A DNA stretch of 64,000 nt. It comes from Candidatus Taylorbacteria bacterium RIFCSPLOWO2_01_FULL_48_100. Lineage in GTDB: Bacteria; Patescibacteriota; Minisyncoccia; Phycocordibacterales; UBA10002. The position numbers and the translations under genes are program-made. Shown one piece after another: positions 1-56,774 of the stretch (position 1 is its first letter; each line of letters begins with the position of its first letter). The stretch spans positions 3,042 through 67,041 of the forward strand of contig MHSA01000011.1 of assembly GCA_001821135.1 (NCBI GenBank), read 5' to 3'. Below the pieces are notes generated by a model. The model saw only the letters and a program-made list of their open reading frames with translations, did no database searches and had not been told where the DNA came from.

Positions 1-581
1 ATTTCTTGCGGCGCGTAAAATTCAAGACGAAACACGCCGCCCCCAAAGCGCGAGCGAAGAGGCGAGGAAAGGAGCGCGATGCGCGTCGTTGCGGCGAGGA
101 GCGTAAATGGCGGAAGCTCCAGTTGAATTGTGCGCGCCGACGGCCCCTTGCCGATAATGATGTGCAGTTCTCCCGACTCCATTGCCGGATACAACACTTC
201 CTCAATGGAGCGGTTGAGGCGGTGTATTTCGTCAATAAACAAAATATCGCCCGCAGAAAGGTTCGTGAGTATGGAAGCGAGGTCGCCAACTTTCTCAATC
301 GCAGGTCCGGAAGTGGATTTCATCTGCGCGCCCATCTCTTTTGCAATTAGGTGGGCGAGTGTCGTCTTGCCGAGCCCCGGCGGTCCGTAAAAAAGAATAT
401 GCTCGGGCGGGTGACTCCGTTCGCGCGCCGCGCCGAGGAGGATTTTTAGATTTTCCGTAACTTGTTTTTGCCCAGTGTACTCATCAAACGATGCGGGGCG
501 GAGTGCCGCGTCAAGAAAGGCGTCCCGCCGCGCGCCGACATCGGCTTCCGTCTTAATCTTTTCTTTCGCAAGTTTTTGCAT
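1..581 (-). CDS. ruvB: Holliday junction helicase RuvB, truncated by the window start (N-terminal ~193 aa present)
   Basis: Minus-strand translation from the ATG at 581-579 gives [10 protein letters not shown]...GQKQV...[22 protein letters not shown]...LFIDEIHRL, which has the RuvB Walker A, Walker B and sensor motifs. The ORF runs off the window edge, so it is absent from the ORF track. Confidence 0.85.
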
Positions 582-3749: not shown

Positions 3750-4217
3750 ATGAAAGAAATCCTTTCTCACAGCATCGCAGACACCGCGAAGTTTGCGCAA
3801 GAGTTTCTTGCTGGGCTGTTTCCATGTGCAGATTCGTCGACAGTTGTTGGGTTATACGGAGATCTCGGTTCGGGCAAGACCGCGTTTGTTCAGCAGATTG
3901 CGAAAGCACTCGGCGCGCGCGGCTCTGTCCAAAGCCCGACTTTTGTCATTATGAAAAAATATGCGCTAAAAAATCCCCCCTCACTCCCCCCTTTATTAAA
4001 GGGGGGATATAGAGGGGATTTACAACTTGTCCATATAGACGCCTACCGTTTAGACAGCGCCACGGATTTAAAAAAACTCGGCTGGGATGCGCTCTCAAGC
4101 GACCATAGTAATCTCATTTTCATAGAATGGGCAGACCGAGTCGCCGACATTTTACCGCTTGACCATATTAAACTCCGCTTTGAGTTTGTAGATGATACAA
4201 CTCGCAAGATATCGTAA
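3750..4217 (+). CDS. tsaE: tRNA threonylcarbamoyladenosine biosynthesis ATPase TsaE (YjeE), carrying a ~17-aa in-frame palindromic-repeat insertion
   Basis: P-loop GDLGSGKT, SPTF motif and HIDAYRL motif are present. The insertion KNPPSLPPLLKGGYRGD is encoded by the palindromic element at 3968-4021. Confidence 0.75.
   Translation: MKEILSHSIADTAKFAQEFLAGLFPCADSSTVVGLYGDLGSGKTAFVQQIAKALGARGSVQSPTFVIMKKYALKNPPSLPPLLKGGYRGDLQLVHIDAYRLDSATDLKKLGWDALSSDHSNLIFIEWADRVADILPLDHIKLRFEFVDDTTRKIS
3968..4021. repeat. G/C-rich palindromic repeat element, copy A (AAATCCCCCCTCACTCCCCCCTTTATTAAAGGGGGGATATAGAGGGGATTT), in-frame inside tsaE
   Basis: Nested inverted repeats. Shares the AAATCCCCTCC...GGAGGGGATTT module with copies at 35846, 55199 and 55722. 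Confidence 0.6.
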
Positions 4218-5270: not shown

Positions 5271-6083
5271 ATGGACTACTGGAAAAGAGATGAACAAAAC
5301 GATGTTACGCTCCTGTTATTCAAACCAGGCGAGCAGGCATCAGAAGATTGTCATAGAGCTTTTGCGATTCTCAGGGAGGTTGAACTCACTGAAACAGAAA
5401 AGGTTCTCTCAATACTGGGAAAGAAAAATAAGCGACCACATCATGGCGGAGATTTGTACCAGTCCCCCAACTTGGGAGATGCTCCCTTGGAGACGGTGCG
5501 CCGAATCATTGCGGCAACACTCATTGTGTGCCGTGTCGAATGGTTCACTTTTGTGAATAGTATTGTTGAAATCACAAATCACAATAGTAGCAGGTCTCCT
5601 CATTTTCGTTACGGCGCGGTTCTCGGTCTTCTTGATGGGTTTTTGTATCCAGATCTGTTTTTGGGAGACGAAGATGATGAAGAAAAAACCTTGCCGTTTT
5701 ACGAGGACATTGGCCCGTGTTGCATATACACAGCAATACTGCTTTGTATATTGAAACTCACTTGGTGGTGTCCAGACGAAAACGAGGAAGACGGCCATCA
5801 ACTCTCAAAACAGCAATCTGGAGAGCTGTCTAACCTAATTAGCAAGTGTCTAGACGAACCTAAGTTAGGTGTCGTTGGAACTCACCCACGGATGCTTGCA
5901 ATATCGCGGTTCCTCACCGAAGTGGCAGTCCGTTACGATGAGGAAGACAGCGAGGGAGGTTCGTTTCGTTCTGAATGGATAGAGGCAATTGCAAATGGAT
6001 TTCTTTATAAAATGTTCGGTAAACTATCCTTCCAGAATCAAGTGGAGTTGGTGAACGAGGCCATTGTGGACTTAAACGGTTGA
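5271..6083 (+). CDS. Hypothetical protein
   Basis: 270-aa ORF with no recognisable domain. It is preceded by four CTGAAAGG repeats and followed by a terminator hairpin. Confidence 0.45.
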   Translation: MDYWKRDEQNDVTLLLFKPGEQASEDCHRAFAILREVELTETEKVLSILGKKNKRPHHGGDLYQSPNLGDAPLETVRRIIAATLIVCRVEWFTFVNSIVEITNHNSSRSPHFRYGAVLGLLDGFLYPDLFLGDEDDEEKTLPFYEDIGPCCIYTAILLCILKLTWWCPDENEEDGHQLSKQQSGELSNLISKCLDEPKLGVVGTHPRMLAISRFLTEVAVRYDEEDSEGGSFRSEWIEAIANGFLYKMFGKLSFQNQVELVNEAIVDLNG

Positions 6084-6092
6084 ATTTGCACA

Positions 6093-6124
6093 GTCGGGTG
6101 ATTTTTGTCACCCGGCTTTTTTTA
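6093..6124 (+). terminator. Rho-independent terminator (CGGGTGA-TTTTTG-TCACCCG plus T7)
   Basis: Hairpin plus T-run. It lies inside the 5' extension of the tracked polA ORF, which argues that the polA start is downstream. Confidence 0.65.
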
Positions 6125-6142
6125 TGGCGGAGCGATGTTAGA

Positions 6143-8656
6143 ATGATCTCAACGATGGCTGAAAAACAGAACAAGCGGCTGGTGCTTATAGATGCGCACG
6201 CGATACTGCATCGCGCATATCATGCGTTGCCGGAGTTTAGTAATAGCAAAGGCGAACCGACGGGCGGGCTCTATGGGCTTGCGGCGATGCTTATTAAAAT
6301 TATTGCGGATTTAAAACCCGACTATCTTGCTGCAGCGTACGATTTGCCGAAGCCGACTTTTCGGCATACTGCGTACAAAGAGTACAAAGAAGGGCGGGCG
6401 AAGGCAGACGATGCGCTCATTTCACAAATGAAACGCTCGCGCGAGATTTTTGAAGCGTTTGGAATCCCGATTTACGACAAAGAAGGGTTTGAAGCGGATG
6501 ATATTCTCGGTACGATTGTAGAAAAGTTACAAGTTACACGCTACAAGTTACAAGTTGATATAGTTATCGCGTCTGGCGATATGGACACCCTACAATTAGT
6601 TGATGGAAAAAAAGTGCAAGTGTACACACTCAAAAAAGGGATTAATGACACGGTTTTGTATGACGAAGAAAAAGTAAGAGAACGCTATGGATTTGGTCCA
6701 AAACTTTTACCGGATTTTAAGGGGTTGAAAGGCGACCCGTCGGATAATATAAAAGGAATAAAAGGGATTGGCGATAAAACTGCGACCGAACTCATACAAA
6801 AATTCGGCTCGGTTGAGGAAATCTATAAGAAGTTGAAGAAAGATAGGGGTATATTTGAGAAAGAAGGAATAAGTGCGCGAATGATTGGACTATTGGATGC
6901 GGGAAAAGAAGATGCTGAGTTTTCTAAAATACTCGGAACTATTCGGCGCGATGCGCCGATTGAATTCGCACTTCCTGAAAAGCCGTGGCGTGAGTGTGCG
7001 AATGTGGGTAATGCAGAAAAGTTATTTCAAGAGTTGGAGTTTCGCAACCTTGGGCAGAGGTTGCGGGCGGCGATATCAAAAGTTTCTTCATCTCGCCCTT
7101 TTCAAGGGGGAGTACCCGAGCGAAGCGAGGGGGAGGGGGTGGTTTCTGCAGAAATTAAATCACCCCTCCGCCCAGCACTTTCTTCAGAAAGTGCTGGGCA
7201 CCTCCCCTTAATCAAGGGCAGGATGAAAGAAAAAGAATTTTCCGACCTCTCCATCGCCCTTTGGCTCATCAATTCCAACCTAACAAACCCGACCGCGGAC
7301 GATGTGTGTAATTTTGCAGGAACGAAAGATGTGAGCGTGGCGCGCGCGAAAATTCTTGCGGAACTGAAAACGCGCGGCCTCGCGCGCGTATTTGAAGAGA
7401 TTGAAAAACCACTCATTCCTGTTGTTGAAAAAATGAACGCCCGCGGCGTGAAAATGGATACAAAGTATCTTGCCGTGCTTTCTACAGAGTACCACCGCGA
7501 GCTTGCTGCGCTGAAAAAAGAAATCTGGAGTATGGCTGGAACCGAATTTAATGTAAATTCACCAAAACAGCTTGGCGAACTTTTGTTTGTAAAAATGGGG
7601 CTTAAGGCGGCGCGACAGAAGAAGACGGCAGGAGGCGCGCTTTCAACACGCGAAAGCGAGCTTGAAAAGATGCGCGATTTGCACCCAATTATTGCGAAGA
7701 TTCTTGAGTACCGCGAGTTTCAGAAACTACTCTCAACCTATATTGACGCGCTTCCAGAATCGGTAGATACGCACGGTCGCTTGCACGCGTCGTTTTTGCA
7801 GGCGGGAACGACGACGGGGCGAATGTCGTCGCAAAATCCGAACTTGCAAAATATCCCCATTCAGACCGCGCGCGGCAGGCGGATTCGGAACGCATTCGTC
7901 GCGGATAATGGCTGTGCGCTCCTCGCGTTTGATTACTCGCAAGTAGAACTTCGCGTTGCGGCAATTCTTTCTGGAGACCAGAAACTTATTGAAATCTTCA
8001 AGAAAGGGGAAGATGTACATACTGCGGTGGCGGCGGAAGTTTTTGGTGTCGCGCCAGAAAAAGTGACTAAAGAAATGCGCCGACAGGCGAAAGTAATTAA
8101 CTTCGGAATTTTGTACGGTATGGGAGTGAATGCGTTGCGCGCTACACTCGGAGATGTAGAAACTCCAGTATCGCGCGCGGACGCGCAGAAATACTTGGAC
8201 GAATATTTCGCGCGCTTTCCAGTGCTCGCCGCGTATTTGGAAGAAACAAAAGCCGTCGCGCGCGAGCGCAGCTACACAGAGACCTTATTCGGGCGGCGCA
8301 GATATTTTGAGGCGCTCAATTCGCCGATTTCGTACATCCGCGCGGCAGCAGAGCGGCAAGTGATTAACGCGCCGATACAAGGCACTGCCGCAGATATCGT
8401 GAAAATTGCGATGGCTCGGGTGGCTGAATTTTTGCGAGACGAGAAATTAGACGAAAAAGCACGCTTGATTTTACAAGTGCATGATGAATTGGTATATGAA
8501 GTGAAAAAAGAGTCGGTTTCCGAGCTCGCGCCAAAAATACAAAAGATAATGGAGGGCGTGTTGTCTCCAGGGCAGTCGCGGGGTGTGCCGATTCTGGTAG
8601 AAGTGAGCGTCGGCGACAATTGGGGGGAGATGCGGAAGTTAGTGGAAAGTAGTTAG
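6143..8656 (+). CDS. polA: DNA polymerase I (5'-3' exonuclease domain plus family-A polymerase domain; no obvious 3'-5' proofreading domain)
   Basis: N-terminal LVLIDAHAILHRAYHA (5' nuclease). C-terminal family-A motifs DYSQVELR, the O-helix RRQAKVINFGILYG, and QVHDELV. Start placed at ATG 6143 (alternative 6155), after the upstream terminator. Confidence 0.9.
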   Translation: MISTMAEKQNKRLVLIDAHAILHRAYHALPEFSNSKGEPTGGLYGLAAMLIKIIADLKPDYLAAAYDLPKPTFRHTAYKEYKEGRAKADDALISQMKRSREIFEAFGIPIYDKEGFEADDILGTIVEKLQVTRYKLQVDIVIASGDMDTLQLVDGKKVQVYTLKKGINDTVLYDEEKVRERYGFGPKLLPDFKGLKGDPSDNIKGIKGIGDKTATELIQKFGSVEEIYKKLKKDRGIFEKEGISARMIGLLDAGKEDAEFSKILGTIRRDAPIEFALPEKPWRECANVGNAEKLFQELEFRNLGQRLRAAISKVSSSRPFQGGVPERSEGEGVVSAEIKSPLRPALSSESAGHLPLIKGRMKEKEFSDLSIALWLINSNLTNPTADDVCNFAGTKDVSVARAKILAELKTRGLARVFEEIEKPLIPVVEKMNARGVKMDTKYLAVLSTEYHRELAALKKEIWSMAGTEFNVNSPKQLGELLFVKMGLKAARQKKTAGGALSTRESELEKMRDLHPIIAKILEYREFQKLLSTYIDALPESVDTHGRLHASFLQAGTTTGRMSSQNPNLQNIPIQTARGRRIRNAFVADNGCALLAFDYSQVELRVAAILSGDQKLIEIFKKGEDVHTAVAAEVFGVAPEKVTKEMRRQAKVINFGILYGMGVNALRATLGDVETPVSRADAQKYLDEYFARFPVLAAYLEETKAVARERSYTETLFGRRRYFEALNSPISYIRAAAERQVINAPIQGTAADIVKIAMARVAEFLRDEKLDEKARLILQVHDELVYEVKKESVSELAPKIQKIMEGVLSPGQSRGVPILVEVSVGDNWGEMRKLVESS
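7095..7224. repeat. G/C-rich modular palindromic repeat element, copy B, inserted in-frame in the polA inter-domain linker (encodes ~43 aa: RPFQGGVPERSEGEGVVSAEIKSPLRPALSSESAGHLPLIKGR)
   Basis: Module GGGGGAGTACCCGAGCGAAGCGAGGGGGAGGGGGTG is identical to copy D at 39550-39642. Module CAGCACTTTCTTCAGAAAGTGCTGGGCACCTCCCC is shared with copy E. The ending CCTTAATCAAGGGCAGGAT is shared with copies C and D. Confidence 0.75.
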
Positions 8657-11380: not shown

Positions 11381-11390
11381 CCGACCCTAA

Positions 11391-11448
11391 AACCACCCCT
11401 CCGCCTCGCGGACTCGGCACCTCCCCTTATGTTAAGGGCAGGATGGAA
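11391..11448. repeat. G/C-rich palindromic repeat element, copy C (intergenic)
   Basis: CACCCCTCCGCC and CCTTATGTTAAGGGCAGGATGG modules are shared with copies B and D. Confidence 0.6.
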
Positions 11449-11526: not shown

Positions 11527-11649
11527 GTATGTAGCGAACTTTGACATACGGATGTGTGTTAGGTGTAGCGGACAGTTTAACTCGTCTTCTGTTTTCAACA
11601 ACAAAAAGACGAGCGGTAACGCGCGACCGCAACAGCGCAACTCCATTGC

Positions 11650-16888: not shown

Positions 16889-17674
16889 ATGGCTATGAAT
16901 AAAGTAGTCGTCGGTCAATCGGTTACGGCTGGCCAAATGAAGGACTTCTGGCGTCAGGTTGACGATGGAAGTATTGGTGGAGATTATTTTCAAGATTTTC
17001 TCGCACACAAACTGGAAAGGAAAGATGGGAACACGGTATCAGAAGTGACAACACCAAAAATCGTCATCCCAAACCTCCTCTCCACCCCTCCCACCCTCGC
17101 CGACTGGCTCAAAGCCCGAGAGGAACTGCACAAGTTCCTTACAGGTGAGCAGGTGATTCTGCGCGATATCTTCGCCCTCACGGACGAAGAACTCGCCAGC
17201 ACCACGCTGATGCCCGCCTTTCGTCCTGCAGGTGCCACCAACCGTAATGCGATTTATTGGAAAATCAAAATTGGGGAGAACAAACCCTATGAAGAAATAG
17301 ATGTAATGAAGTACACAAACAGTCAAGGTCCAAAACAACCCGAGCTGTACATCATCAACCGCTCCGTTACACCAGATGACGACACGGTCGGCGACAAAGC
17401 CAAGAGTCCCAACCAACTCATCGCTCACAACAAGCTATGGCTCGGACTCTTCTGCTGGTGCGATGCAGATACTCTGCATCATGTCATTACCGGAGAGACC
17501 CTTGACCAAAAAACTTGGACATGGTTCCCAAACGACCGTCTCCGCTACGCCAAGGTTGCGCTCGGCTACTGGAACCCGCTCAACCGCCGGGTCTACCTCT
17601 ACTGGCGCTATGCCGTCTATTGCAATCCGAACAACGGCGCTCGCTCAGCAAAAAAAGTTCCCATTAAATCTTGA
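16889..17674 (+). CDS. DGR target (variable) protein; the C-terminal ~35 aa are encoded by the VR
   Basis: 261 aa. The C-terminus ...RYAKVALGYWNPLNRRVYLYWRYAVYCNPNNGARS aligns with the TR-encoded NGKVANGNWNPNNRQVYLNWNYADNCNPNNGARS. Confidence 0.8.
   Translation: MAMNKVVVGQSVTAGQMKDFWRQVDDGSIGGDYFQDFLAHKLERKDGNTVSEVTTPKIVIPNLLSTPPTLADWLKAREELHKFLTGEQVILRDIFALTDEELASTTLMPAFRPAGATNRNAIYWKIKIGENKPYEEIDVMKYTNSQGPKQPELYIINRSVTPDDDTVGDKAKSPNQLIAHNKLWLGLFCWCDADTLHHVITGETLDQKTWTWFPNDRLRYAKVALGYWNPLNRRVYLYWRYAVYCNPNNGARSAKKVPIKS
17542..17648 (+). repeat. DGR variable repeat (VR)
   Basis: About 84% identical to the TR at 17938-18044. It differs from the TR only where the TR has A (apart from one edge position). 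It ends in the shared GC-rich CGGCGCTCGCTCAG (IMH-like). Confidence 0.85.
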
Positions 17675-18044: not shown

Positions 18045-18066
18045 AAATTTCTCGTACCAAGGAGCC

Positions 18067-18386: not shown

Positions 18387-18393
18387 TCGAATC

Positions 18394-19281
18394 TTGAGAA
18401 TAACTGATGGTGTCTTGTCGGGGGGGCGTCATAGTAGTGATTTTTATGATGTAATCTCGCTCGAACATCTACTCTGTGCATGGCGGAAGTTCTCCAAGGG
18501 AAAGCGAACCGACAGTGAAGTTGCAAAGTTTGAATTATGTTTGGAAGAAAATCTTTTCTCTCTCCACGAACGATTGGCGCAAGGAGTATGGACAAACGAC
18601 CCCTACCGACGCCAACCAGTTGCTGACCTCAAACCTCGCGTCATTCATATTCCGAGCGTTCGCGACCGAGTTCTTTTTCAAGCCGTATATCAAGCATTGT
18701 ATCAGATATTTGATAAGACATTTATCCACGACTCGTACGCTTCCGGGAAATGCAAAGGAACGCATACAGGCGTGAACCGATTTGAGACATTTGCACAAAA
18801 AGTATCTGCAAATCATACCAAACCCGCTTTTGTCTTGAAATGCGATATCAAAAAGTTTTTTGCAAATATCTACCTGAATGAACTAGACCAATTCGTAAAA
18901 CACAAACTTAAGGTGCGGTACTATATTCGTTACTGCGATGATTTCGTGATTTTAGACAATTCACACAAACAACTTCTGTCGCACATTTCTGCACTCCGCG
19001 CATTTCTCAATGAAAAACTCTTGCTAGAACTGCATCCGAGCAAGGTAACCATACGAAAATTGCATCAGGGAACCGATTTTCTTGGTTATGTCTCTCTCCC
19101 ACACTATCGCGTATTGCGGACAAAGACAAAACAGAGGATGCTCGCGCGAGTGAGTGAGAAGAATGTTGCGTCATATCTCGGAATGTTATCTCATTGCTGT
19201 TCCCACAATTTAACGAAAAAAATTTTGGCGGGTTATACTAAGGCGGTACAACATCATGCAATTCATACAATCTATTATTGA
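18394..19281 (+). CDS. DGR reverse transcriptase
   Basis: RT motifs present: PRVIHIPSVRDRVLFQAV (motif 1/2), LKCDIKKFF, the YCDDFVIL (YxDD) motif, and LELHPSKVTIRKLHQGTDFLGY. The tracked ORF starts at a TTG. Confidence 0.8.
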   Translation: MRITDGVLSGGRHSSDFYDVISLEHLLCAWRKFSKGKRTDSEVAKFELCLEENLFSLHERLAQGVWTNDPYRRQPVADLKPRVIHIPSVRDRVLFQAVYQALYQIFDKTFIHDSYASGKCKGTHTGVNRFETFAQKVSANHTKPAFVLKCDIKKFFANIYLNELDQFVKHKLKVRYYIRYCDDFVILDNSHKQLLSHISALRAFLNEKLLLELHPSKVTIRKLHQGTDFLGYVSLPHYRVLRTKTKQRMLARVSEKNVASYLGMLSHCCSHNLTKKILAGYTKAVQHHAIHTIYY

Positions 19282-29732: not shown

Positions 29733-30155
29733 ATGGCAAAGAAATTACTGCGAAAGTTGAAGTTGATTGTTCCAGGTGCGGCGGCAACGCCCGCGCCGCC
29801 TTTGGGTCCCGCTTTGGGGCAGGCGAAGGTAAACATCGGTGAGTTCGTGACTCGCTTCAATGCGGCGACGCAAAAGATGAAGGGCGAGACGCTTCCTGTG
29901 GAAGTGCATATTTTTGACGACAAGTCGTTTGACCTAAAAATAAAAGCGCCGACTGTTTCCAGTATGCTTCTCAAGGCAATCGGCAAAGAGAAAGGTGCGG
30001 GCAAGCCGCCGGTAGAAAAAGCGGGAACAATTACTAAGGCGAAATTGCGCGAAATTGCAGAAAAGAAAATGCAGGACTTGAATACAACCACAATTGAAGC
30101 CGCCGAAAAAATAGTCGCCGGTAGCGCGCTGTCTATGGGGATAGAAATTAAATAG
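29733..30155 (+). CDS. rplK: 50S ribosomal protein L11
   Basis: KLIVPGAAATPAPPLGPALGQAKVNIGEFV...FDLKIKAPTVSSMLLKA is the L11 signature. Confidence 0.9.
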   Translation: MAKKLLRKLKLIVPGAAATPAPPLGPALGQAKVNIGEFVTRFNAATQKMKGETLPVEVHIFDDKSFDLKIKAPTVSSMLLKAIGKEKGAGKPPVEKAGTITKAKLREIAEKKMQDLNTTTIEAAEKIVAGSALSMGIEIK

Positions 30156-30708
30156 CGCGTTCCAAATCAACCCACACATATCTTAATCCAGTTTTCGTGT
30201 CAGTTCTTTCTTCGCGGAATACTTCGTGCGTGAAGTCCTTGTTCCAGTCGTGGAAGAAAACATCACCCTCCGCATCGCTTTCAACGAGCGTGAGGTAGAG
30301 TTTGTCGGTGAGCGGGAGCGCTTGTTTATAAATCTCTCCGCCACCGATGATGAAGATTTCCTTTTTGTTTTCCTCCTGCCCTTTTCCAAAGGGGAGGTGT
30401 CTCCCATAGGGAGACGGAGGGGTGTCTTCTGTTTTCTGCGCAATTTGTATCGCTTCTTCAAGCGACCCCGCAACCACCACTCCTTCCTTCTTAAAATACG
30501 GATTGCGCGTTATAACGATATTTGTGCGGTTTGGAAGTGCTTTGCCGATAGAGTCAAATGTCTTTCTGCCCATAATAACCGTATGTCCAGTCGTGAGCAC
30601 CTTAAACCGCTTAAGGTCGTCCGAAATGCGCCAAAGGAGCGCGCCCGCCTTTCCAATCGCGCGATTGTTCCTCCCCACCGCGGCAATGATGCTGATGCAC
30701 GCTTCCAT
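30148..30708 (-). CDS. folA: Dihydrofolate reductase carrying a ~24-aa in-frame palindromic-repeat insertion
   Basis: ISIIAAVGRNNRAIGKAGALLW...DLKRFKVLTTGHTVIMGRKTF ... IGGGEIY are DHFR motifs. The insertion EDTPPSPYGRHLPFGKGQEENKKE is encoded by the palindromic element at 30379-30426. Confidence 0.85.
   Translation of the reverse strand: MEACISIIAAVGRNNRAIGKAGALLWRISDDLKRFKVLTTGHTVIMGRKTFDSIGKALPNRTNIVITRNPYFKKEGVVVAGSLEEAIQIAQKTEDTPPSPYGRHLPFGKGQEENKKEIFIIGGGEIYKQALPLTDKLYLTLVESDAEGDVFFHDWNKDFTHEVFREERTDTKTGLRYVWVDLERAI
30379..30426. repeat. G/C-rich palindromic repeat element, copy H (CCCTTTTCCAAAGGGG ... GTCTCCCATAGGGAGAC), in-frame inside folA
   Basis: Two inverted-repeat modules in the style of the CCCTTATCATAAGGGGG modules of copies B, C and D. 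Confidence 0.55.
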
Positions 30709-30709
30709 T

Positions 30710-31342
30710 TTATTTTACCGCATGCTCTGCTTTAAGTTTTCTTATATCACCCTTAAAGATAAGCCGTGACTCCAGTGCTCTTTCTTTTTTAATGCCTTCT
30801 ATAATGTCGCGCTTGTGGTATTTGCTCTTTCGAGGGGCGACTGGTTCGGTGAGTTCTTCAAAAACAATTTGGCATAGCCGTTCTCCCGGGTAAAGGCGGA
30901 CAATTTGCGAACTGGTGTTGTTGCGGATGGGGAGCGTCAATTGTCCTTCATATCCAGAATCAATAATCCCAGTGAGGTCAAGCGAGAGCCCTTTGCGGTT
31001 GGTAGACGAACGAGGATACAAAATCGCCATAATATCGTTCGGCACTTTTATTGATTCAAGGGTTGAGACAAGCACATATTCGTTTGGCAATAGGTCAAAA
31101 TACTGGCCTTGTTCAAGTTCTATAATCTCAAAATAGTCGGCGTTCACTTTGTCAAAATTGAGTATGTCTAGCGATTCGCGACCGCGCGCCGTGATGTGCC
31201 AGATTTTGGGAATTAGAAAGGTGAAGCCGAGCCGCAAGTCCACTGCGTGGTCTTGCAGTTGGAACGAATCCAGATTCGGCGAGAAGCCGATTTCTTTTTT
31301 TGCAACCCGCTCAAGAATTCCTTTTTTGGTCAGTATAGCCAT
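30710..31342 (-). CDS. dcd: dCTP deaminase (Dcd/dUTPase superfamily)
   Basis: MAILTKKGILERV...DLRLG...DSGYEGQLTLPIRN... gives Dcd-like length and motifs. Confidence 0.7.
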   Translation of the reverse strand: MAILTKKGILERVAKKEIGFSPNLDSFQLQDHAVDLRLGFTFLIPKIWHITARGRESLDILNFDKVNADYFEIIELEQGQYFDLLPNEYVLVSTLESIKVPNDIMAILYPRSSTNRKGLSLDLTGIIDSGYEGQLTLPIRNNTSSQIVRLYPGERLCQIVFEELTEPVAPRKSKYHKRDIIEGIKKERALESRLIFKGDIRKLKAEHAVK

Positions 31343-31354: not shown

Positions 31355-32191
31355 TTATAGCACAATTTTGATTCCCTTAATGTGTTCAAGCGGTTCATAT
31401 TGACTTTGCAGATTTCCAACAATTTCTTTTACAAGCTTTTTATCTTTCTTTTCAGCGCGCTCAAATGTTTTTGGCGGAAGATTCAAAATGACTTTTTTAT
31501 GCTCGTTACTCCTTCGTAAGATTTCTTCAGCTGCAAAGTAATGCGTGTCATAAATATGTGCGTTAGAGATTGAATGGCTGTATATTCCGGGTTTTACGCA
31601 GAGTCGCTCGGCAAGAATACATTGCAGAAGCGCAAAACCCGCGACATCGGAAGGAGTACCAAGTATTACATCATTTGAACGAATGATATTATGCAGATTA
31701 AGCCGCCCCCCGATTATATTAACCGTAAAGGTATATGGGCACGGCACATTTTTTTTCACCGCTCCGCCAAGTCCGTCGCCACTTGGGTCCCATGCAATAA
31801 CAACTCCATGCCGCGAACTCGGGTCCTTTTCCAAAAGTTTTACCAAAAGCCCGAGTTGGTCGCGGCCAAAATGTTTTCGCCATCGGTAGCCGTAGGCGAC
31901 TGTAACTACATCGCCGGGATTGGTGAAGTCATCCCAGATTTTGGTGAACTCGCGTAGAAAATCTTCGGGTTTGCGCCCGCCGGAGATAAACCATAGTTGT
32001 TCCGCGACAAACATCTGAATTGGAATCTTTCTGAGCGTCAGAAGCGGGAAGCCGTCTTTTTCAATATCCACGGAGAAATGCATGCCAGGAATTGCTCGCG
32101 TTTCGTGCCCAGTGCGCTTGTTCACATCGGCAATACCCTCGGTCATAATACGCCGAACCAACCCCTGATAAATCTCATCAAATTTTGTCAT
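31355..32191 (-). CDS. thyA: Thymidylate synthase ThyA (divergent: PCP instead of PCH, RSND instead of RSCD, and a C-terminal extension)
   Basis: NKRTGHETRAIPGMHFSV...FPLLTLRKIPIQMFVAEQLWFISG ... VPCPYTFTVNIIGGRLNLHNIIRSNDVILGTPSDVAGFALL are ThyA/dCMP-hydroxymethylase family motifs. It sits with folA, dcd, tmk and glyA. Confidence 0.75.
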   Translation of the reverse strand: MTKFDEIYQGLVRRIMTEGIADVNKRTGHETRAIPGMHFSVDIEKDGFPLLTLRKIPIQMFVAEQLWFISGGRKPEDFLREFTKIWDDFTNPGDVVTVAYGYRWRKHFGRDQLGLLVKLLEKDPSSRHGVVIAWDPSGDGLGGAVKKNVPCPYTFTVNIIGGRLNLHNIIRSNDVILGTPSDVAGFALLQCILAERLCVKPGIYSHSISNAHIYDTHYFAAEEILRRSNEHKKVILNLPPKTFERAEKKDKKLVKEIVGNLQSQYEPLEHIKGIKIVL

Positions 32192-33310: not shown

Positions 33311-34498
33311 ATGAAAGACCTACAAATCAAAAAATTGATGGATGCCGAGAAAAAGCGGCAGAAAAGCGTGATTAACCTAATTGCCTCGGAAAATTATGTT
33401 TCCAAAGATGTGCTTGAGGCACTTGGAAGCGAGCTCACCAATAAATACGGCGAAGGGTATCCTGGTAAACGCTACTATCGCGGGTGCGCGGTTGTTGACG
33501 AGGTAGAGCGCGCAGCGCGGAAGCGCGCGCTTGATTTGTTTGGGCTTACCGAAAAAGAATGGGGAGTTAATGTGCAACCATTATCGGGTTCGCCCGCCAA
33601 CTTCGCAGTGTATGCTGCACTTGTTCCAATTGGTGGAAAGGTGATGGGTATGTCGCTTGACCACGGCGGACACCTCACTCACGGCCAGCCCGTTTCTATG
33701 ACTGGAAAGGTGTGGAAGCAAGTGCCGTACGGATTGGATAAGGAAACCGAAAGATTGGATTACGAACACATTAAAAAGATTGCGACAGAAAACAAGCCCG
33801 CTCTTATCGTTGCGGGTTTTACTGCATACGCGCACATCATTGATTTTAAGAAGTTTCGCGAAATCGCGGATTTATGCAACGCGATTTTAATGGTAGATAT
33901 GTCGCATTTTGCTGGGCTAGTTGCAGGTGGAGAGTATCCATCGCCGTTTGCATATGCGGACATTGTAACGACGACAACTCACAAAACTCTACGAGGACCG
34001 CGCTCGGCGCTCATTTTCTCAAAAGAAGACGAACGAAAGTTGCCTAGAAAAATTGATAAAGCAATTCTACCAGGATTGCAGGGCGGTCCGCACTTCAACC
34101 AAATTGCGGCGGTGGCGGTGGCGCTCAAAGAGGCGAGTACGCCTTCGTTTAAGAAATACGCGGCGCAAGTGGTAAAGAACGCGCGCGCGCTCGCGGATGA
34201 ATTGCAAAAGCTCGGACACAGGATTGTAGAAGGCGGAACGGAAACGCACCTCTTGCGCATTGACACTTGGCTCGGCGGCCGCGGAATCGGGGGGCGGGAA
34301 GCCGCCGACAAACTTGAGGCGGCGGGGATTATCGTGAGTGAAAGCACTCTTCCATTTGATACGCGCGGTCCGGTAGACCCATCGGGCATACGGCTCGGCA
34401 GTGCGGCAGAGACCACGCGTGGCAAAAAAGAGAAGGACTTTATAGCAATCGCGCGGAAAGTTGATAGAATACTCCGTAATGGTAACAGAGAGCATTAA
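33311..34498 (+). CDS. glyA: Serine hydroxymethyltransferase
   Basis: LIASENYVSKDVLEALGSELTNKYGEGYPGKRYY ... VTTTTHKTLRGPR (PLP lysine region). Confidence 0.95.
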   Translation: MKDLQIKKLMDAEKKRQKSVINLIASENYVSKDVLEALGSELTNKYGEGYPGKRYYRGCAVVDEVERAARKRALDLFGLTEKEWGVNVQPLSGSPANFAVYAALVPIGGKVMGMSLDHGGHLTHGQPVSMTGKVWKQVPYGLDKETERLDYEHIKKIATENKPALIVAGFTAYAHIIDFKKFREIADLCNAILMVDMSHFAGLVAGGEYPSPFAYADIVTTTTHKTLRGPRSALIFSKEDERKLPRKIDKAILPGLQGGPHFNQIAAVAVALKEASTPSFKKYAAQVVKNARALADELQKLGHRIVEGGTETHLLRIDTWLGGRGIGGREAADKLEAAGIIVSESTLPFDTRGPVDPSGIRLGSAAETTRGKKEKDFIAIARKVDRILRNGNREH

Positions 34499-36152
34499 AC
34501 AGGCGGTTGCGGAAGCACTCACAAAACTTGGGATTAAAAATCCCGATGTGTCGTTGGAACACCCAGAGGAATTGTCGCACGGCGATTATTCCACGAATGT
34601 TGCGCTTCGGTATGCGAAAGAACTTAAAAAAAGCCCGCAGACAATCGCAGAAGATATAATACGATATATCGTACTACAGAAGATTCCAGCACTTGCGCGC
34701 GCGGAAGCGGCGGCAGGTTTTGTGAACTTTTTTCTCGCCGGAGAATTCTTTGCGGAACGAATACAAGAGATTTTGGAAAAGAAAGATGGTTTTGGAAAGC
34801 AGGATGTTGGAAAGGGAAGGAAAGTGGTTGTAGAATTTTCGTCTCCGAACATTGCAAAGCCGTTTACGATTGGGCATTTGCGCTCAACAATTATCGGAGA
34901 CGCAGTTGCGAAAACGCTCTCTTTTCTAGGATATTCTGTTATCCGCGACAATCACCTCGGTGATTGGGGTACGCAATTCGGAAAAATGATTGTTGCGATT
35001 AAGAAGTGGGGAGATATTCAGAAAATTGCAGAAAACGCGGCTCCTGTTAGAGCGTTGGTGGATTTGTATGTCTGTTTTCACGCTGAAGCAAAAACGAACA
35101 TCGCGCTTGAAGATGAGGCGCGTGAGTGGTTTGTGAAATTGGAGAAAGGAGATGAAGAAGCGCGCGGTTTGTGGAAGCAGTGCGTAGCGTGGTCAATGAA
35201 GGAGTTTGAGTCGCTGTACAAACGGCTTGGCGTTTCTTTTGATACGATGCATGGAGAGAGTTTTTTTGAAGATAAAATGCGCGCTGTGGTGGAGGATCTT
35301 GAACGGAAAAATCTCTTAAAAGAAAGCGAAGGCGCGCGGCTTGTATTTTTTCCTAGCGATTCCTTGCCGCCGCTTATGATAATAAAAAAAGACGGCGGGA
35401 CATTGTACGCGACTCGCGACCTGGCGACTGATGCATGGAGGAAAAGAGAGTATGGCGACGGGGTAATTATCGTCAATGAGACGGGCGGAGAGCAATCGCT
35501 GTATTTCAAGCAGGTTTTTATGCTGGAAGAAATGCTCGGCTGGTTTGCGCGCGGCGAGCGGGTGCACATCGGGCACGGGCTCACGCGTGGGAAAGAAGGG
35601 AAGATGAGCACGCGGGAGGGCAACACGATTTGGCTTGAAGATGTGCTTGACGAGGCAGTGAAGCGCGCGGAAGCAATAAATAAAGAGACGGCAGAAATAG
35701 TTGGAATCGGCGCGCTTAAGTTTAACGACTTGAAGCGGGAGGCGAAACAAGACACCATTTTTGATTGGAATGATGTGCTGAATATGAAAGGCGACTCTGG
35801 ACCGTACTTGCAGTATTCTTATGCGCGGGCAATGTCGGTAATCAGAAAATCCCCTCCTCAGTTGAGGAGGGGTGCCGAGTTCGCGAGGCGGGGTGGTGGT
35901 GTTACTACATTAGAACGCCTCCTTTACCGATTTCCTGAAGTCGTACTGCGCGCGGGCAAGGACTACGCGCCGCATTTTATTGCGACTTATCTTATTGAAT
36001 TAGCGGGCGCGTTTAACAATTGGTATGCGAAGGAGCGCATTCTTAATGCTGGGGAGGAAACGGAATACCGCCTCGCGCTCACCGCCGCATTCGCGCAGGT
36101 TATGAAAAATGGACTTTGGCTACTTGGCATCGCCGCGCCGGAGAAGATGTAA
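34479..36152 (+). CDS. argS: Arginine--tRNA ligase carrying a ~19-aa in-frame palindromic-repeat insertion near residue 455
   Basis: SSPNIAKPFTIGHLRSTIIGDA (HIGH-like), GDWGTQFGKMI, and a C-terminal DALR domain. The insertion SPPQLRRGAEFARRGGGVT is encoded by repeat copy G. Confidence 0.9.
   Translation: MVTESIKQAVAEALTKLGIKNPDVSLEHPEELSHGDYSTNVALRYAKELKKSPQTIAEDIIRYIVLQKIPALARAEAAAGFVNFFLAGEFFAERIQEILEKKDGFGKQDVGKGRKVVVEFSSPNIAKPFTIGHLRSTIIGDAVAKTLSFLGYSVIRDNHLGDWGTQFGKMIVAIKKWGDIQKIAENAAPVRALVDLYVCFHAEAKTNIALEDEAREWFVKLEKGDEEARGLWKQCVAWSMKEFESLYKRLGVSFDTMHGESFFEDKMRAVVEDLERKNLLKESEGARLVFFPSDSLPPLMIIKKDGGTLYATRDLATDAWRKREYGDGVIIVNETGGEQSLYFKQVFMLEEMLGWFARGERVHIGHGLTRGKEGKMSTREGNTIWLEDVLDEAVKRAEAINKETAEIVGIGALKFNDLKREAKQDTIFDWNDVLNMKGDSGPYLQYSYARAMSVIRKSPPQLRRGAEFARRGGGVTTLERLLYRFPEVVLRAGKDYAPHFIATYLIELAGAFNNWYAKERILNAGEETEYRLALTAAFAQVMKNGLWLLGIAAPEKM
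35846..35903. repeat. G/C-rich palindromic repeat element, copy G (AAATCCCCTCCTCAGTTGAGGAGGGGTGCCGAGTTCGCGAGGCGGGGTGGTGGTGTT), in-frame inside argS
   Basis: Shares the AAATCCCCTCCTCA(A/G)(C/T)TGAGGAGG module with copies E and F. Confidence 0.65.
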
Positions 36153-36159
36153 AATATAT

Positions 36160-39549: not shown

Positions 39550-39642
39550 CGCCCTTATCATAAGGGGGAGTACCCGAGCGAAGCGAGGGGGAGGGGGTGT
39601 CAGAAAAAAAACACCCCTCCCTTTCCCTCCCCTTAGGTAAAG
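39550..39642. repeat. G/C-rich modular palindromic repeat element, copy D (intergenic, between ileS and recO)
   Basis: CCCTTATCATAAGGGGGAGTACCCGAGCGAAGCGAGGGGGAGGGGGTG ... ACACCCCTCCC ... CCCCTTAGGTAAAGGGCAGGGTAT. The GGGGGAGTACCCGAGCGAAGCGAGGGGGAGGGGGTG module is identical to copy B. Confidence 0.75.
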
Positions 39643-39661
39643 GGCAGGGTATAAAGAAAAT

Positions 39662-55813: not shown

Positions 55814-56650
55814 AAATGTCTTTTATGTATAATACAAATGTCCTTTATAAATGTCCGTTAGATTTTATAAACGACATTCATATATGTATAAAAAGAGCAT
55901 AAAGGACATTAGAAGAAATACAAATGTCCTTTATAAAAAGACAGAATATCCCGATATGTCCTTTATAGGCGGAGAGTACTTGATTTTCCTTGTTAAAAAG
56001 GTAGAAAACTTTGTTCGCGCTATATACCTAATAACAAATTTTCTATCGGACAGTGAGCCGTTAAAATGGAGATTACGGACAATCTCAACTGAATTAATTG
56101 ATAAGTTAATGTCCTTTATAAAAAGTGAAGTAAATCAAGTGAATATTCGTTTGTACCGCGCGGACTTTTTAGGGTGTCTCTCCGGTATTGTATCTCTGTT
56201 GAATGTAGGAGAAGAGGGCGGCGTTATTTCTGAAGCGAATGTTGCGCTTCTAAAGAGGGAAATACAAAGCTTTTTCCCCATTTTTAATGAGAGAATCTTT
56301 GTGATGCGCAAGGACGATATTGAAAATCTTCCGCTTGCAAAAAATAAAGAGGCGTCTTTTCGGCACAAACCTGCGCGCGGAAGACCCCGTCTTATGCGGA
56401 GGTTGTCCGTTAGAAACACTGAAGATGTTTTAATAAGTCCTATACAGGATTCTGATAACATACAAAATGTCTTTTATAAACATAAAGGACAAGACAATGT
56501 AAGCGTTCGTAAAAGAAATAAAAGAACAAGAAACATAGAAGACATAAGGTCAAAACTGCGCATCACTCGCCAGAAATCAATTATGGATATTCTAAAGGAC
56601 AAAAAGAAGTTAACAATTCGTGAGTTAATGTCCTTTATAAAGGACTGCGG
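55814..56650. repeat. Iteron-like array: at least 8 copies of ATGTCCTTTATAAA (and its inverse ATAAAGGACAT) in the promoter region and within the coding sequence of the 55851-56774 gene
   Basis: Copies at approximately 55819, 55838, 55898 (inverted), 55924, 55957, 56109, 56468 with adjacent inverted copy 56481, 56593 (inverted, partial: TAAAGGACAAAAAG) and the perfect palindrome GTCCTTTATAAAGGAC at 56631. Confidence 0.7.
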
Positions 56651-56774
56651 TGAGAAAACACTTCAGCGGGATTTATACGAATTGTCCGATAAGGGCGTGT
56701 TAAAAAAAGAGGGAGAAAAAAGGTGGAGTGCTTATTCTTTTGTTCAGCCGCTTCTATTATTTGATGGAAAATGA
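55851..56774 (+). CDS. Hypothetical DNA-binding protein with a C-terminal winged helix-turn-helix; the coding sequence itself contains the iteron motif (MSFIK peptide repeats)
   Basis: The C-terminal SIMDILKDKKKLTIRELMSFIKDCGEKTLQRDLYELSDKGVLKKEG is a DeoR/MarR-like wHTH. AT-rich gene. Confidence 0.5.
   Translation: MSVRFYKRHSYMYKKSIKDIRRNTNVLYKKTEYPDMSFIGGEYLIFLVKKVENFVRAIYLITNFLSDSEPLKWRLRTISTELIDKLMSFIKSEVNQVNIRLYRADFLGCLSGIVSLLNVGEEGGVISEANVALLKREIQSFFPIFNERIFVMRKDDIENLPLAKNKEASFRHKPARGRPRLMRRLSVRNTEDVLISPIQDSDNIQNVFYKHKGQDNVSVRKRNKRTRNIEDIRSKLRITRQKSIMDILKDKKKLTIRELMSFIKDCGEKTLQRDLYELSDKGVLKKEGEKRWSAYSFVQPLLLFDGK

What the first reader, a model, noticed from the sequence alone, without database searches (positions are those of the whole stretch)
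30379..30426. Palindromic repeat inserted in-frame in dihydrofolate reductase (family copy H)
DHFR here is 186 aa. The extra EDTPPSPYGRHLPFGKGQEENKKE segment is encoded by two abutting inverted repeats (CCCTTTTCC-AAAGGGG and GTCTCCC-ATAG-GGAGAC) of the same G/C-rich style as the other family members. This is another essential enzyme tolerating a repeat-derived loop.
Basis: partly seen in the sequence, partly recalled or inferred. Interest (0 to 1): 0.5.

Follow-up and report, generated by a model that had tools for sequence, protein, structure and literature searches.

The report
Palindromic repeat inside a DHFR gene
A 55-base hairpin-forming repeat that is scattered through the genome of this small groundwater bacterium (a Taylorbacteria/CPR lineage) sits in frame inside its dihydrofolate reductase gene and adds about 20 floppy amino acids to a surface loop of an apparently working enzyme: a known kind of 'selfish DNA inside genes', here in a new bacterial group.

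Summary
Window 30148..30708 (-) is a bona fide folA (Pfam 9.5e-50; AF2 model TM 0.92-0.93 to solved DHFRs). Bases 30370..30427 encode about 20 extra residues in the alphaE-betaE loop, which is disordered in the model.

The insert is one arm of a dispersed palindromic repeat: CACCCCTCC - variable hairpin - CCTCCCCTT - loop - AAGGGCAGG. A profile built only from copies in other genomes hits it at E=3.5e-12. Three more copies lie in the window: in polA in other reading frames, and two intergenic. At least 44 loci in four CPR genomes carry it.

Syntenic orthologs lack the insert (P0007, P0022). Half of 120 Parcubacteria DHFRs carry other inserts at this loop; the three checked at DNA level are hairpin-forming.

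First, against the nearest full-length ortholog the element core has pS 0.076, versus 0.65 for the rest of the gene. Second, the same units bracket DUF559 (Vsr-like) nuclease genes in several phyla (p=1e-28), which suggests a nuclease-linked copying or correcting mechanism.

The kind is known (Rickettsia RPEs, intragenic REPs). The family and the DUF559 link appear undescribed in the searchable literature.

The parts
30148..30708 (-). folA (dihydrofolate reductase), 186 aa, host gene of the insertion
   Evidence: Pfam DHFR_1 E=9.5e-50; PDB sequence hits 6e-30; AF2 pLDDT 88.7; Foldseek TMt 0.92-0.93, rmsd 1.7 A to DHFR structures; dN/dS about 0.07 against L060
30370..30427 (-). Inserted repeat unit: one 'right arm' of the family, in sense orientation. 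Encodes about residues 95-113 of the alphaE-betaE loop.
   Evidence: nhmmer E=3.5e-12 with a profile that excludes window copies; absent from orthologs P0007 and P0022; AF2 residues 99-111 have pLDDT<50, between helix 83-92 and strand 117-120
30415..30424 (-). Box 1, CACCCCTCCG (read as T-P-P here)
   Evidence: Identical in the polA, 11.4-kb and 39.6-kb copies and in most units from other genomes
30399..30415 (-). Variable cassette hairpin GTCTCCC-TAT-GGGAGAC
   Evidence: Perfect 7-bp inverted repeat. Variant GTCTCCCTTCGGGAGACA occurs at three loci of genome CAYORD01, including its folA. Other copies carry unrelated hairpins or short linkers of 3-44 nt at this position.
30375..30399 (-). Box 2 CACCTCCCCTT, loop TGGAA, box 3 AAGGGCAGG: a hairpin with a conserved C.C mismatch
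   Evidence: Inverted repeat I2. This pattern defines the family scan. The folA variants in P0004 and P0005 read CCCCCCCTT/AAGGGCGGG, with one compensatory pair change and the mismatch kept.
7095..7227 (+). Full-length element (inverted left arm 7095-7141, spacer, right arm 7158-7227) in frame in the polA linker
   Evidence: nhmmer E=6e-10 (right arm) and 3e-4 (left arm); folds at -80.7 kcal/mol, z=-8.2; polA ortholog in L038 lacks it; Pfam places it between the 5'-3' exonuclease and polymerase domains
11390..11447 (+). Intergenic solo unit
   Evidence: nhmmer E=1e-13; the same site is occupied in L066 and L039
39551..39653 (+). Intergenic full-length element between ileS and recO (left arm 39551-39598, right arm 39609-39653)
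   Evidence: nhmmer E=6e-12 and 1.5e-4; 38 nt identical to the polA left arm; flanking genes identified

Best explanation
SHOWN. Window 30370-30427 is a solo arm of a dispersed, hairpin-forming repeat family. Each arm is three conserved boxes around a swappable hairpin cassette. Complete elements are two inverted arms of about 135 nt in total, REPIN- or MITE-like. The arm lies inside folA, in frame and free of stop codons, exactly where the codons for the alphaE-betaE surface loop are. It is absent from syntenic orthologs. It is shared, at identical junctions, with the nearest full-length ortholog (84% aa identity). Related but diverged or partly deleted versions occupy the same site in P0004, P0005 and P0019.

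INFERRED. The element entered an ancestor of these lineages. It is transcribed and translated as part of DHFR, giving a Pro/Gly-rich disordered loop of about 20 residues. That loop is far from the active site and the Met20/F-G/G-H loops, so the enzyme keeps working, and only such harmless in-frame insertions survive selection. That survival filter would explain why this loop is a hot spot across Parcubacteria.

INFERRED, less certain. The element's sequence is kept nearly unchanged by a DNA-level process acting on the family, not by protein-level selection. The likely process is copy-to-copy correction or re-copying, plausibly started by the DUF559 (Vsr-like PD-(D/E)xK) nucleases whose genes are bracketed by the same units. 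My estimates: about 0.9 that it is a repeat-derived, translated, tolerated insertion; about 0.35 that a DUF559-linked mechanism spreads or homogenises the units.
For: Hairpins and split Pfam match. Insert placed between E. coli P89 and E90. AF2 gives helix 83-92, strand 117-120 and residues 99-111 at pLDDT<50, with the core fold intact.

Family membership: E=3.5e-12 with an independent profile. polA and folA copies share boxes in different reading frames, and there are intergenic copies, so the similarity is at DNA level. At least 44 loci in four CPR MAGs carry the pattern, and most copies are intergenic.

Empty orthologous sites in P0007 and P0022, with conserved synteny to rplK/nusG/secE or dcd. 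The polA ortholog lacks its element. The HMM also recognises the folA inserts of P0004 and P0005.

Functionality: pN 0.099 against pS 0.653 outside the insert, invariant catalytic residues, thymidylate-cycle gene neighbours.

DNA-level constraint: the core differs at 3 of 55 nt, all in hairpin loops. Third positions differ at 1 of 19, against 76 of 167 elsewhere (Fisher p=0.0004). pS is 0.076 against 0.653 (binomial 2.7e-5). The lowest-divergence 19-codon windows of the whole gene are exactly those over the element. pN is about equal to pS inside it.

Not an artefact: identical DNA in six independent assemblies and four NCBI protein records.

DUF559 link: units flank DUF559 genes in five CPR loci and in a delta- and a gammaproteobacterium. 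In 80 DUF559 loci found by protein similarity alone, 46 of 49 unit-profile hits lie within 171 nt of the gene, and the hairpin motif is 1.57/kb near against 0.06/kb far, p=1e-28. A 78-nt module is present or absent between otherwise identical contigs next to a DUF559 gene.
Against: No expression or proteomic evidence shows that the loop is translated. No target-site duplication or clean insertion boundary could be defined; the A-rich flanks may be part of the element. No transposase, RAYT or DUF559 gene lies in the 64-kb window, and the rest of this genome could not be searched.

The synonymous-site contrast rests on one unbiased ortholog pair. Against only the 26 adjacent codons it is not significant (7/26 vs 1/19, p=0.11). 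The other orthologous-site comparisons are ascertainment-biased, because both loci were fetched with the exact pattern.

The DUF559 association is purely positional. Only 14-21 of 80 DUF559 loci show this hairpin type, and some DUF559 genes are bracketed by direct rather than inverted units.
Confidence: 0.8

Rival explanations
1. The unit is itself a functional nucleic-acid module, kept in place by selection at each site including inside folA. It could be a structured RNA segment whose CCUCC and GGAGG tracts mimic anti-Shine-Dalgarno and Shine-Dalgarno sequences and tune translation or mRNA stability, or a DNA site bound by a host protein.
For: Very low synonymous divergence of the core in situ. 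Substitutions are confined to hairpin loops. One compensatory pair change occurs with a retained mismatch in the P0004/P0005 variants. The three-way fold of the solo unit is closed by CCUCC/GGAGG. Intergenic copies sit in UTR-like positions, one just 5' of recO.
Against: No Rfam family covers it. Copies occur in both orientations relative to genes, and the middle cassette is replaced wholesale between orthologous sites. Orthologs do well without it. The fold of the 11.4-kb solo copy is no better than shuffles (z=-0.5). A role inside a DHFR coding region is hard to motivate.
Confidence: 0.15
2. The window lineage and the L060 lineage acquired the same element variant independently and recently at a targeted hot spot. 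Under this reading the low divergence reflects the young age of the copies, not constraint or correction.
For: This loop carries many unrelated inserts, scattered over the DHFR tree; the three checked at DNA level are hairpin-forming. The cassette variant GTCTCCC-TTC-GGGAGAC is present at other loci of the L060 genome. Presence/absence polymorphism of a module shows recent turnover.
Against: Both junctions are at exactly the same codons in the two genes, with no length difference. Diverged or partly deleted relatives of the element occupy the same site in P0004, P0005 and P0019, which fits one old insertion better.
Confidence: 0.1
3. The extra loop is a lineage-specific protein feature selected for what it does as a peptide, such as a docking or regulatory loop. 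Its resemblance to repeats would then be incidental.
For: It is retained, always in frame, in P0001, P0002, P0003 and strain variants.
Against: Inside the insert pN is about equal to pS, so there is no protein-level purifying signal. The model is disordered there. The same DNA occurs intergenically and in other reading frames. Other orthologs carry unrelated sequences or nothing at this loop.
Confidence: 0.04
4. Assembly or binning artefact: a repeat was mis-joined into folA.
For: Short repeats can cause chimeric joins in metagenome assemblies. P0002 looks like a mosaic.
Against: Identical folA DNA occurs in six independent assemblies, on contigs up to 180 kb, and in four NCBI records. An 84%-identical ortholog from another project has the same insert. 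The reading frame is intact.
Confidence: 0.01

Closest known systems
Rickettsia palindromic elements (RPEs; Ogata et al. 2000, as summarised in PMC10969869)
   Same: Dispersed palindromic repeats in a reduced-genome bacterium that are found in frame inside unrelated housekeeping genes. They add peptide segments compatible with the protein fold, and non-coding copies also exist.
   Different: RPEs are about 100-150 bp, A/T-rich like their hosts, and each family encodes a conserved peptide. Here the in-gene unit is 55-60 nt and G/C-rich, built of three short boxes around a replaceable hairpin, and is read in different frames in different genes. No sequence comparison with RPE consensuses was possible. 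The host is a CPR/Parcubacteria lineage.
REP / REPIN elements with RAYT transposases, including GTAG- and CGTC-tagged REPs (PMC3733652; PMC8049555)
   Same: Short imperfect palindromes, mostly intergenic, often as inverted dimers that fold into long hairpins. The family persists across species. Occasional intragenic copies are reported for REPs. A small nuclease-type gene is bracketed by the repeats, the analogue of a REPtron.
   Different: There is no unpaired GTAG or CGTC tag. The GTC of some cassettes is base-paired, and stems of 5-16 bp are G/C-rich rather than starting with A/T pairs. No RAYT (Y1 HUH) gene was seen; the bracketed gene is DUF559, a PD-(D/E)xK Vsr-like nuclease.
Bacterial MITEs that form in-frame fusions (ERIC, BOX, Correia, cyanobacterial MITEs; review PMC10969869)
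   Same: Non-autonomous small elements with terminal inverted repeats; occasional in-frame intragenic copies; stable predicted secondary structure.
   Different: No target-site duplication and no related DDE transposase or parent IS were identified. The modular box/cassette organisation and solo half-elements are not typical of MITEs.
G+C-rich palindromic clusters of yeast mitochondrial DNA (own knowledge, not checked here)
   Same: Short G/C-rich hairpin elements flanked by A/T-rich DNA that spread within a small genome and can sit in frame inside a protein gene (var1).
   Different: Organellar and eukaryotic, with unrelated sequences. No link to a DUF559-type gene is known to me.

Membership tests
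Dihydrofolate reductase, type I FolA (host gene) | Sequence match to DHFR_1 across the whole domain | tested here: met
   Pfam E=9.5e-50, profile 2-159 covered in two stretches; PDB phmmer 6e-30
Dihydrofolate reductase, type I FolA (host gene) | DHFR fold and catalytic/cofactor residues (E. coli D27, F31, R57, G95-G97, Y100, T113) | tested here: met
   Foldseek TMt 0.92-0.93, rmsd 1.7 A. D31, F35, R61, G122-124, Y127 and T140 are present and invariant or nearly so in 120 orthologs.
Dispersed palindromic repeat family of Taylorbacteria-like CPR genomes (defined here) | Boxes CACCCCTCC ... CCTCCCCTT-N4-5-AAGGGCAGG in this order, with a significant match to a profile built from other genomes | tested here: met
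   nhmmer E=3.5e-12, model positions 2-55; exact pattern match
Rickettsia palindromic elements (RPE) | Palindromic repeat found in frame in protein-coding genes as well as in non-coding DNA | tested here: met
   folA and polA copies in frame; 11.4-kb and 39.6-kb copies intergenic
Rickettsia palindromic elements (RPE) | Sequence similarity to one of the RPE-1..10 consensuses; occurrence in Rickettsiales | not tested
   No RPE consensus sequences were available in the tools. The host is a CPR bacterium, so homology is unlikely. This is an analogy only.
REP/REPIN | Conserved unpaired GTAG or CGTC tetranucleotide at one end of the palindrome (PMC3733652) | tested here: not met
   No GTAG. CGTC occurs only in some cassettes (CCGTCTCCC), and there its GTC is base-paired.
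REP/REPIN | Inverted dimers that form one long hairpin | tested here: met
   polA and 39.6-kb elements are left arm, spacer, right arm; -80.7 kcal/mol, z=-8.2
REP/REPIN | Cognate RAYT (IS200/IS605-like Y1 transposase) gene flanked by the repeats | tested here: inconclusive
   No Y1_Tnp or other transposase among about 60 window ORFs. The whole genome is not searchable. The repeat-flanked gene found in related genomes is DUF559, not a RAYT.
MITE | Terminal inverted repeats | tested here: met
   Ends of the polA element are TTTCTTCATCTCGCCCTT against the reverse complement TTTCTTTCATCCTGCCCTT (read)
MITE | Target-site duplication and a related autonomous IS | tested here: inconclusive
   A 7-nt GAAAACA flanks the folA copy but is not in register with the reading frame and is absent in L060. 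No IS was found.
DUF559 / Vsr-like nuclease-associated element (hypothesis) | Units lie immediately next to DUF559 genes more often than chance | tested here: met
   46 of 49 profile hits within 171 nt of the gene in 80 protein-anchored loci; motif density 1.57/kb against 0.06/kb, p=1e-28;
DUF559 / Vsr-like nuclease-associated element (hypothesis) | A DUF559 gene in the same genome as the folA insert, and nuclease activity on the units | not testable with these tools
   None in the 64-kb window. The closest named relatives are from other MAGs. Biochemistry is needed.

The most novel reading that the evidence does not exclude
The boxes-plus-hairpin units are the substrates of a previously unrecognised kind of mobile or self-correcting palindromic element that depends on DUF559 (Vsr-like, homing-endonuclease-related) nucleases instead of RAYT or DDE transposases. 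The nuclease would nick the mismatched hairpin or cruciform, and repair would copy units from one site to another. This single mechanism would explain three things at once: the spread of units into genes such as folA and polA; the swapping of hairpin cassettes at fixed sites; and the near-identity of an in-gene copy between species whose synonymous sites are saturated. It would also explain the cross-phylum habit of DUF559 genes of sitting between such hairpins.
Probability: 0.2. Interest if true: 0.8.

Novelty: new member of a known kind. Interest (0 to 1): 0.5.

Why it matters
It extends the 'selfish palindromes inside essential genes' phenomenon, classically known from Rickettsia, to the Candidate Phyla Radiation, another group of reduced-genome, host-dependent bacteria. 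This suggests that the phenomenon follows genome reduction and small population size more than any one lineage.

There is a practical side. Such inserts inflate and fragment CPR protein families and create spurious Pro/Gly-rich 'hypothetical' peptides, so recognising the family improves annotation.

Two by-products could matter more than the finding itself. One is a single DHFR loop that has accepted inserts in half of the sampled Parcubacteria; the three checked at DNA level are hairpin-forming. That is a natural map of insertion tolerance, useful for DHFR engineering. The other is the statistical link between these hairpin units and DUF559 nuclease genes, together with a DNA-level conservation of the in-gene copy that protein selection cannot explain. 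That link gives a testable handle on how small palindromic repeats without a known transposase are propagated.

Tried and rejected
- Target-site duplication. A GAAAACA direct repeat flanks the folA copy, but removing the element plus one repeat copy breaks the frame, and the repeat is absent in L060. I treated it as chance in A-rich DNA.
- Known RNA families. Rfam gathering scan of the window found only five tRNAs.
- Transposase or RAYT in the window. Pfam on about 60 ORFs found none; the only mobile-element enzyme is a DGR reverse transcriptase. tblastn for DUF559 in the window was negative.
- REP tags. The element has no GTAG or CGTC tag in the published sense.
- In-situ conservation at intergenic orthologous sites. 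The boxes are invariant while the flanks are 70-83% identical. I rejected this as evidence because both members of each pair were fetched with the exact pattern.
- Local comparison. Element against only the adjacent 26 codons is not significant (p=0.11). The claim rests on the gene-wide contrast.
- NJ tree of DHFR without the loop. It is too poorly resolved to count gains and losses.
- Other copies of the inserts of P0030, P0069 and P0033 within +/-10 kb of their folA genes: none found.
- Literature. Searches for palindromic, REP or MITE elements in CPR/Parcubacteria, and for DUF559 linked to repeats, found nothing relevant.
- Same-genome DUF559. I could not establish whether this genome has a DUF559 gene. 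The nearest homolog, P0126, comes from other assemblies.
Full report
WHAT IS THERE

The ORF at 30148..30708 on the minus strand encodes a 186-aa protein. It matches Pfam DHFR_1 at E=9.5e-50, but in two stretches, with residues 5-94 matching profile positions 2-90. Its neighbours are a dCTP deaminase (30710..31342) and thymidylate synthase ThyA (31355..32191) on the same strand. Nearby lie dCMP deaminase, thymidylate kinase, SHMT and FolD. The gene therefore sits in a thymidylate/folate-cycle cluster, where DHFR is needed to recycle the dihydrofolate made by ThyA (established pathway knowledge).

An identical protein is recorded for several 'Candidatus Taylorbacteria bacterium RIFCSPHIGHO2...' MAGs. 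Identical folA DNA occurs in six independent assemblies, on contigs up to 180 kb. The sequence is therefore not an assembly accident.

THE OBSERVATION

On the + strand there are two abutting inverted repeats:
- CCTGCCCTTT/AAAGGGGAGG at 30375-30384/30388-30397 (10 nt, one mismatch, 3-nt loop).
- GTCTCCC/GGGAGAC at 30399-30405/30409-30415 (7 nt, perfect, 3-nt loop).

The second palindrome, allowing two mismatches, is expected 0.08 times in shuffled windows. The 71-nt sense strand folds at -24.5 kcal/mol, z=-2.6.

WHERE THE INSERT SITS IN THE PROTEIN

- Solved DHFRs align to residues 6-94 and 113-179.
From my knowledge of ecDHFR, that is the turn between helix alphaE and strand betaE in the adenosine-binding subdomain, away from the Met20, F-G and G-H loops.
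- An AlphaFold2 model built on 120 orthologs has mean pLDDT 88.7. It places a helix at 83-92 and a strand at 117-120, and residues 99-111 fall below pLDDT 50.
- The model superposes on DHFR crystal structures with target-normalised TM 0.92-0.93 and rmsd 1.7 A.
- The catalytic and cofactor residues (D31, F35, R61, G122-G124, Y127, T140) are present and invariant or nearly so among orthologs.

ORTHOLOG COMPARISON

Among 120 homologs, I measured the stretch between the conserved A86 and E117.
- In 60 proteins it is 9-13 residues, typically AIKKAGEIDSE.
- In the other 60, including the window, it is 15-79 residues.
- The extra sequences fall into many unrelated types, for example RSDLKSGKRSDLK, LDGHHPASTFQDGAHQ, LLPPSLEGGANGK and SPLIKGVPSRRGGG.

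Only P0002 and P0003 carry the window's own insert.

I fetched DNA for eight orthologs, seven by protein look-up plus L060 (= P0003), which had come in with the pattern scan. Synteny with rplK/nusG/secE or dcd is conserved in most, so these are true orthologs. The codon alignment shows the following.
- P0007 and P0022 have an empty site.
- P0003 (locus L060) has the same element at exactly the same junctions.
- P0004 and P0005 have a related variant (CACCCCCC..., CCCCCCCTT-N4-AAGGGCGGG). The family profile still recognises it (E=2e-3 and 9e-5).
- P0019 keeps only GACACCCCTCCG, followed directly by the downstream codons. This looks like a partial deletion.

Three unrelated inserts from other orthologs are also hairpin-forming at the DNA level. 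One is a perfect 16-bp stem (-36.9 kcal/mol), one is a -69.5 kcal/mol G/C-rich structure, and the third (L118) folds more weakly at -22.3 kcal/mol.

On a poorly resolved NJ tree, empty and variously filled sites are interleaved. This loop-coding site is therefore a hot spot for palindromic insertions across Parcubacteria. I cannot say whether that reflects targeting or only survival of harmless insertions.

THE REPEAT FAMILY

On the sense strand the insert reads:

GA-CACCCCTCCG-TCTCCCTATGGGAGA-CACCTCCCCTT-TGGAA-AAGGGCAGG-AGGAA

The same three boxes, in the same order, occur at three more places in the window:
- In polA (7158-7227).
- Between an unknown ORF and a promoter-like site (11390-11447).
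- Between ileS and recO (39609-39653).

In polA, box 1 and box 3 are read in different frames from folA. The similarity is therefore at the DNA level, not the protein level.

The polA and 39.6-kb copies also have an inverted, more diverged left arm (7095-7141, 39551-39598). The complete element is thus two inverted arms of about 135 nt in total. It folds at -80.7 kcal/mol, z=-8.2. folA holds a single right arm. The polA ortholog in L038 lacks the element.

- 44 stretches come from four CPR MAGs: CAYIUC01 (20 loci), CAYORD01 (15), CAYTVT01 (5) and Parcubacteria Gr01-1014_17 (4).
- The rest are single hits in unrelated genomes.

Aligned units show invariant boxes around a middle segment of 3-44 nt. 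That segment is either a short linker or one of many unrelated, mostly perfect hairpins that begin GYC and end GRC-A. The folA-type cassette GTCTCCC-TTC-GGGAGAC recurs at three loci of CAYORD01.

A profile built from 61 units with the window's own copies excluded hits the folA insert at E=3.5e-12 over the full model. Most copies are intergenic.

No Rfam family matches. No GTAG or CGTC tag in the published sense is present. Among about 60 window ORFs there is no transposase.

EVOLUTIONARY SIGNAL INSIDE THE GENE

I compared the window with L060, an ortholog that the protein search also returned independently of the pattern (as P0003).

| Measure | Rest of folA | 55-nt element core |
|---|---|---|
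| Nucleotide differences | 22.4% | 3 of 55, all in the two hairpin loops |
| Third-position differences | 76 of 167 (45.5%) | 1 of 19 |
| pS | 0.653 | 0.076 |
| pN | 0.099 | 0.068 |

- Outside the insert, dN/dS is about 0.07, so the enzyme is under strong purifying selection.
- The third-position contrast gives Fisher p=0.0004.
- Seeing at most one synonymous change in the core has probability 2.7e-5 at the host rate.
- In a sliding scan, the six least-diverged 19-codon windows of the gene are exactly those over the element.
- Inside the core pN is about equal to pS, so the conservation is not protein-level.

Caveats. This is one pair. Against only the 26 adjacent codons, which encode conserved secondary structure, the contrast is not significant (7/26 vs 1/19, p=0.11). 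The similar-looking result for intergenic orthologous sites is ascertainment-biased, and I do not use it.

Three readings remain open: constraint on the DNA or RNA itself; correction of copies against one another; or parallel recent insertion. The identical junctions, and the diverged relatives at the same site, argue against the last.

A LEAD ON MECHANISM

In loci from three of the CPR genomes, two units in inverted orientation bracket a gene of about 113 aa that is DUF559 (PF04480, E=1.3e-34). DUF559 is a Vsr-like PD-(D/E)xK nuclease. Published classification groups it with Vsr and with a group I intron homing endonuclease (PMC3424549).

Two loci that the scan had fetched from a deltaproteobacterium (L037) and a Pseudaeromonas (L102) purely through the 18-nt hairpin pattern also have a DUF559 gene right next to the hit.

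As an unbiased test I fetched 80 DUF559 loci from metagenomes by protein similarity alone.
- 46 of 49 unit-profile hits lie within 171 nt of the gene ends.
- The motif C3+TT-N3-6-AAG3+ occurs at 1.57/kb within 200 nt, against 0.06/kb farther away (binomial p=1e-28; 14 of 80 loci).

A further CPR DUF559 gene (P0126) is again bracketed by a full element and an inverted unit. Otherwise identical contigs differ by a 78-nt module next to it, a presence/absence polymorphism.

The window itself has no DUF559 gene, and I could not search the rest of the genome. The link is positional only. It does offer one mechanism, nuclease-initiated copying or correction of units, that would account for dispersal, for cassette swapping at fixed sites, and for the low divergence of the in-gene copy.

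COMPARISON WITH WHAT IS KNOWN

Palindromic repeats inserted in frame into housekeeping genes are the hallmark of Rickettsia RPEs. In-frame fusions are also noted for several bacterial MITEs (PMC10969869), and intragenic REPs have been reported (PMC3733652).

This case works like those but is not a member of them.
- The host is a CPR bacterium.
- The unit is short, G/C-rich and modular.
- It lacks REP tags.
- No RAYT or IS partner is seen.

Searches of the held literature found no description of such elements in CPR/Parcubacteria, nor of a DUF559-repeat association. That library is incomplete, so 'undescribed' is provisional.

VERDICT

It is a new member of a known kind, an RPE/REP-like in-frame palindromic insertion.

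It is of moderate interest in itself. It gains interest from three additional results: the hot-spot loop, the DNA-level conservation of the in-gene copy, and the DUF559 association. The last two deserve follow-up.

Noticed in passing
window 16889-19281: A diversity-generating retroelement. A 117-nt repeat pair lies at 17535-17651 (VR, at the 3' end of ORF 16889..17674) and 17931-18047 (TR). 14 of the 15 mismatches fall at TR adenines. A reverse transcriptase (RVT_1) gene follows at 18394..19281. Perfect hairpins lie at 17780-17804 and 18056-18082; the first resembles the CCAGCACTT...AAGTGCTGG cassette of the polA element.
   Followed up: partly
window 7095-7227 (polA, ORF 6080..8656): A complete two-arm element of about 135 nt is inserted in frame in the linker between the 5'-3' exonuclease and polymerase domains of DNA polymerase I (peptide ...RPFQGGVPERSEGEGVVSAEIKSPLRPALSSESAGHLPLIKGR...). 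It is absent from the ortholog in L038.
   Followed up: partly
window 3971-4021 (tsaE, ORF 3750..4217) and 35846-35892 (argS, ORF 34461..36152): Two further G/C-rich palindromes lie inside genes, giving peptides NPPSLPPLLKGGYRGD and SPPQLRRGAEFARRGGGV. The tsaE one is a weak hit to the unit profile (E=0.016), and Pfam TsaE spans about 21 extra residues. The argS module is the same type as the 78-nt polymorphic module in L201/L203.
   Followed up: partly
L047 288-626, L048 5986-6303, L006 6874-7212, L056 4657-4995, L037 3239-3568, L102 2042-2362, L200-L203: DUF559 (Vsr-like nuclease) genes are bracketed by units of the same family in CPR genomes and in a delta- and a gammaproteobacterium. In 80 protein-anchored metagenomic loci the hairpin motif is about 28-fold enriched within 200 nt of the gene.
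   Followed up: yes
L200 vs L201/L203, about 3370-3450: Otherwise identical contigs differ by a 78-nt palindromic module between the DUF559 gene and secG. This is a presence/absence polymorphism and suggests recent gain or loss.
   Followed up: partly
L117 5973-7443, L118 6639-7688, L119 4427-5873: In related Parcubacteria a reverse transcriptase plus a bAvd-like gene (a DGR-type cassette) lies between dcd and folA. In the window these two genes abut instead.
   Followed up: no
window 36109-39522 (ileS): Isoleucyl-tRNA synthetase of 1137 aa has a histidine-phosphatase (His_Phos_1) domain hit at residues 516-600, interrupting the class I catalytic domain.
   Followed up: no
window 11448-11535: Downstream of the 11.4-kb unit, about 45 nt and a TTGACT-N17-TATACT promoter-like site are conserved with L066 although no ORF follows immediately. 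L066 and L039 have a full two-arm element here, whereas the window keeps only the right arm.
   Followed up: no
L116 980-1519 (P0002): This folA is a mosaic. Its 3' 474 nt are 94% identical to the window, and the aligned stretch around the insert is 100% identical, but the N-terminal part is diverged. This is recombination between strains or an assembly chimera.
   Followed up: no
window 55809-56641: Five or more copies of a 21-27-nt A/T-rich repeat (AATACAAATGTCCTTTATAAA) lie upstream of and inside the unannotated ORF 55851..56774. G/C-rich terminator-like hairpins of the CCCCTCCTCA-NN-TGAGGAGGGG type are nearby at 55199, 55290-55317 and 55723-55750.
   Followed up: no
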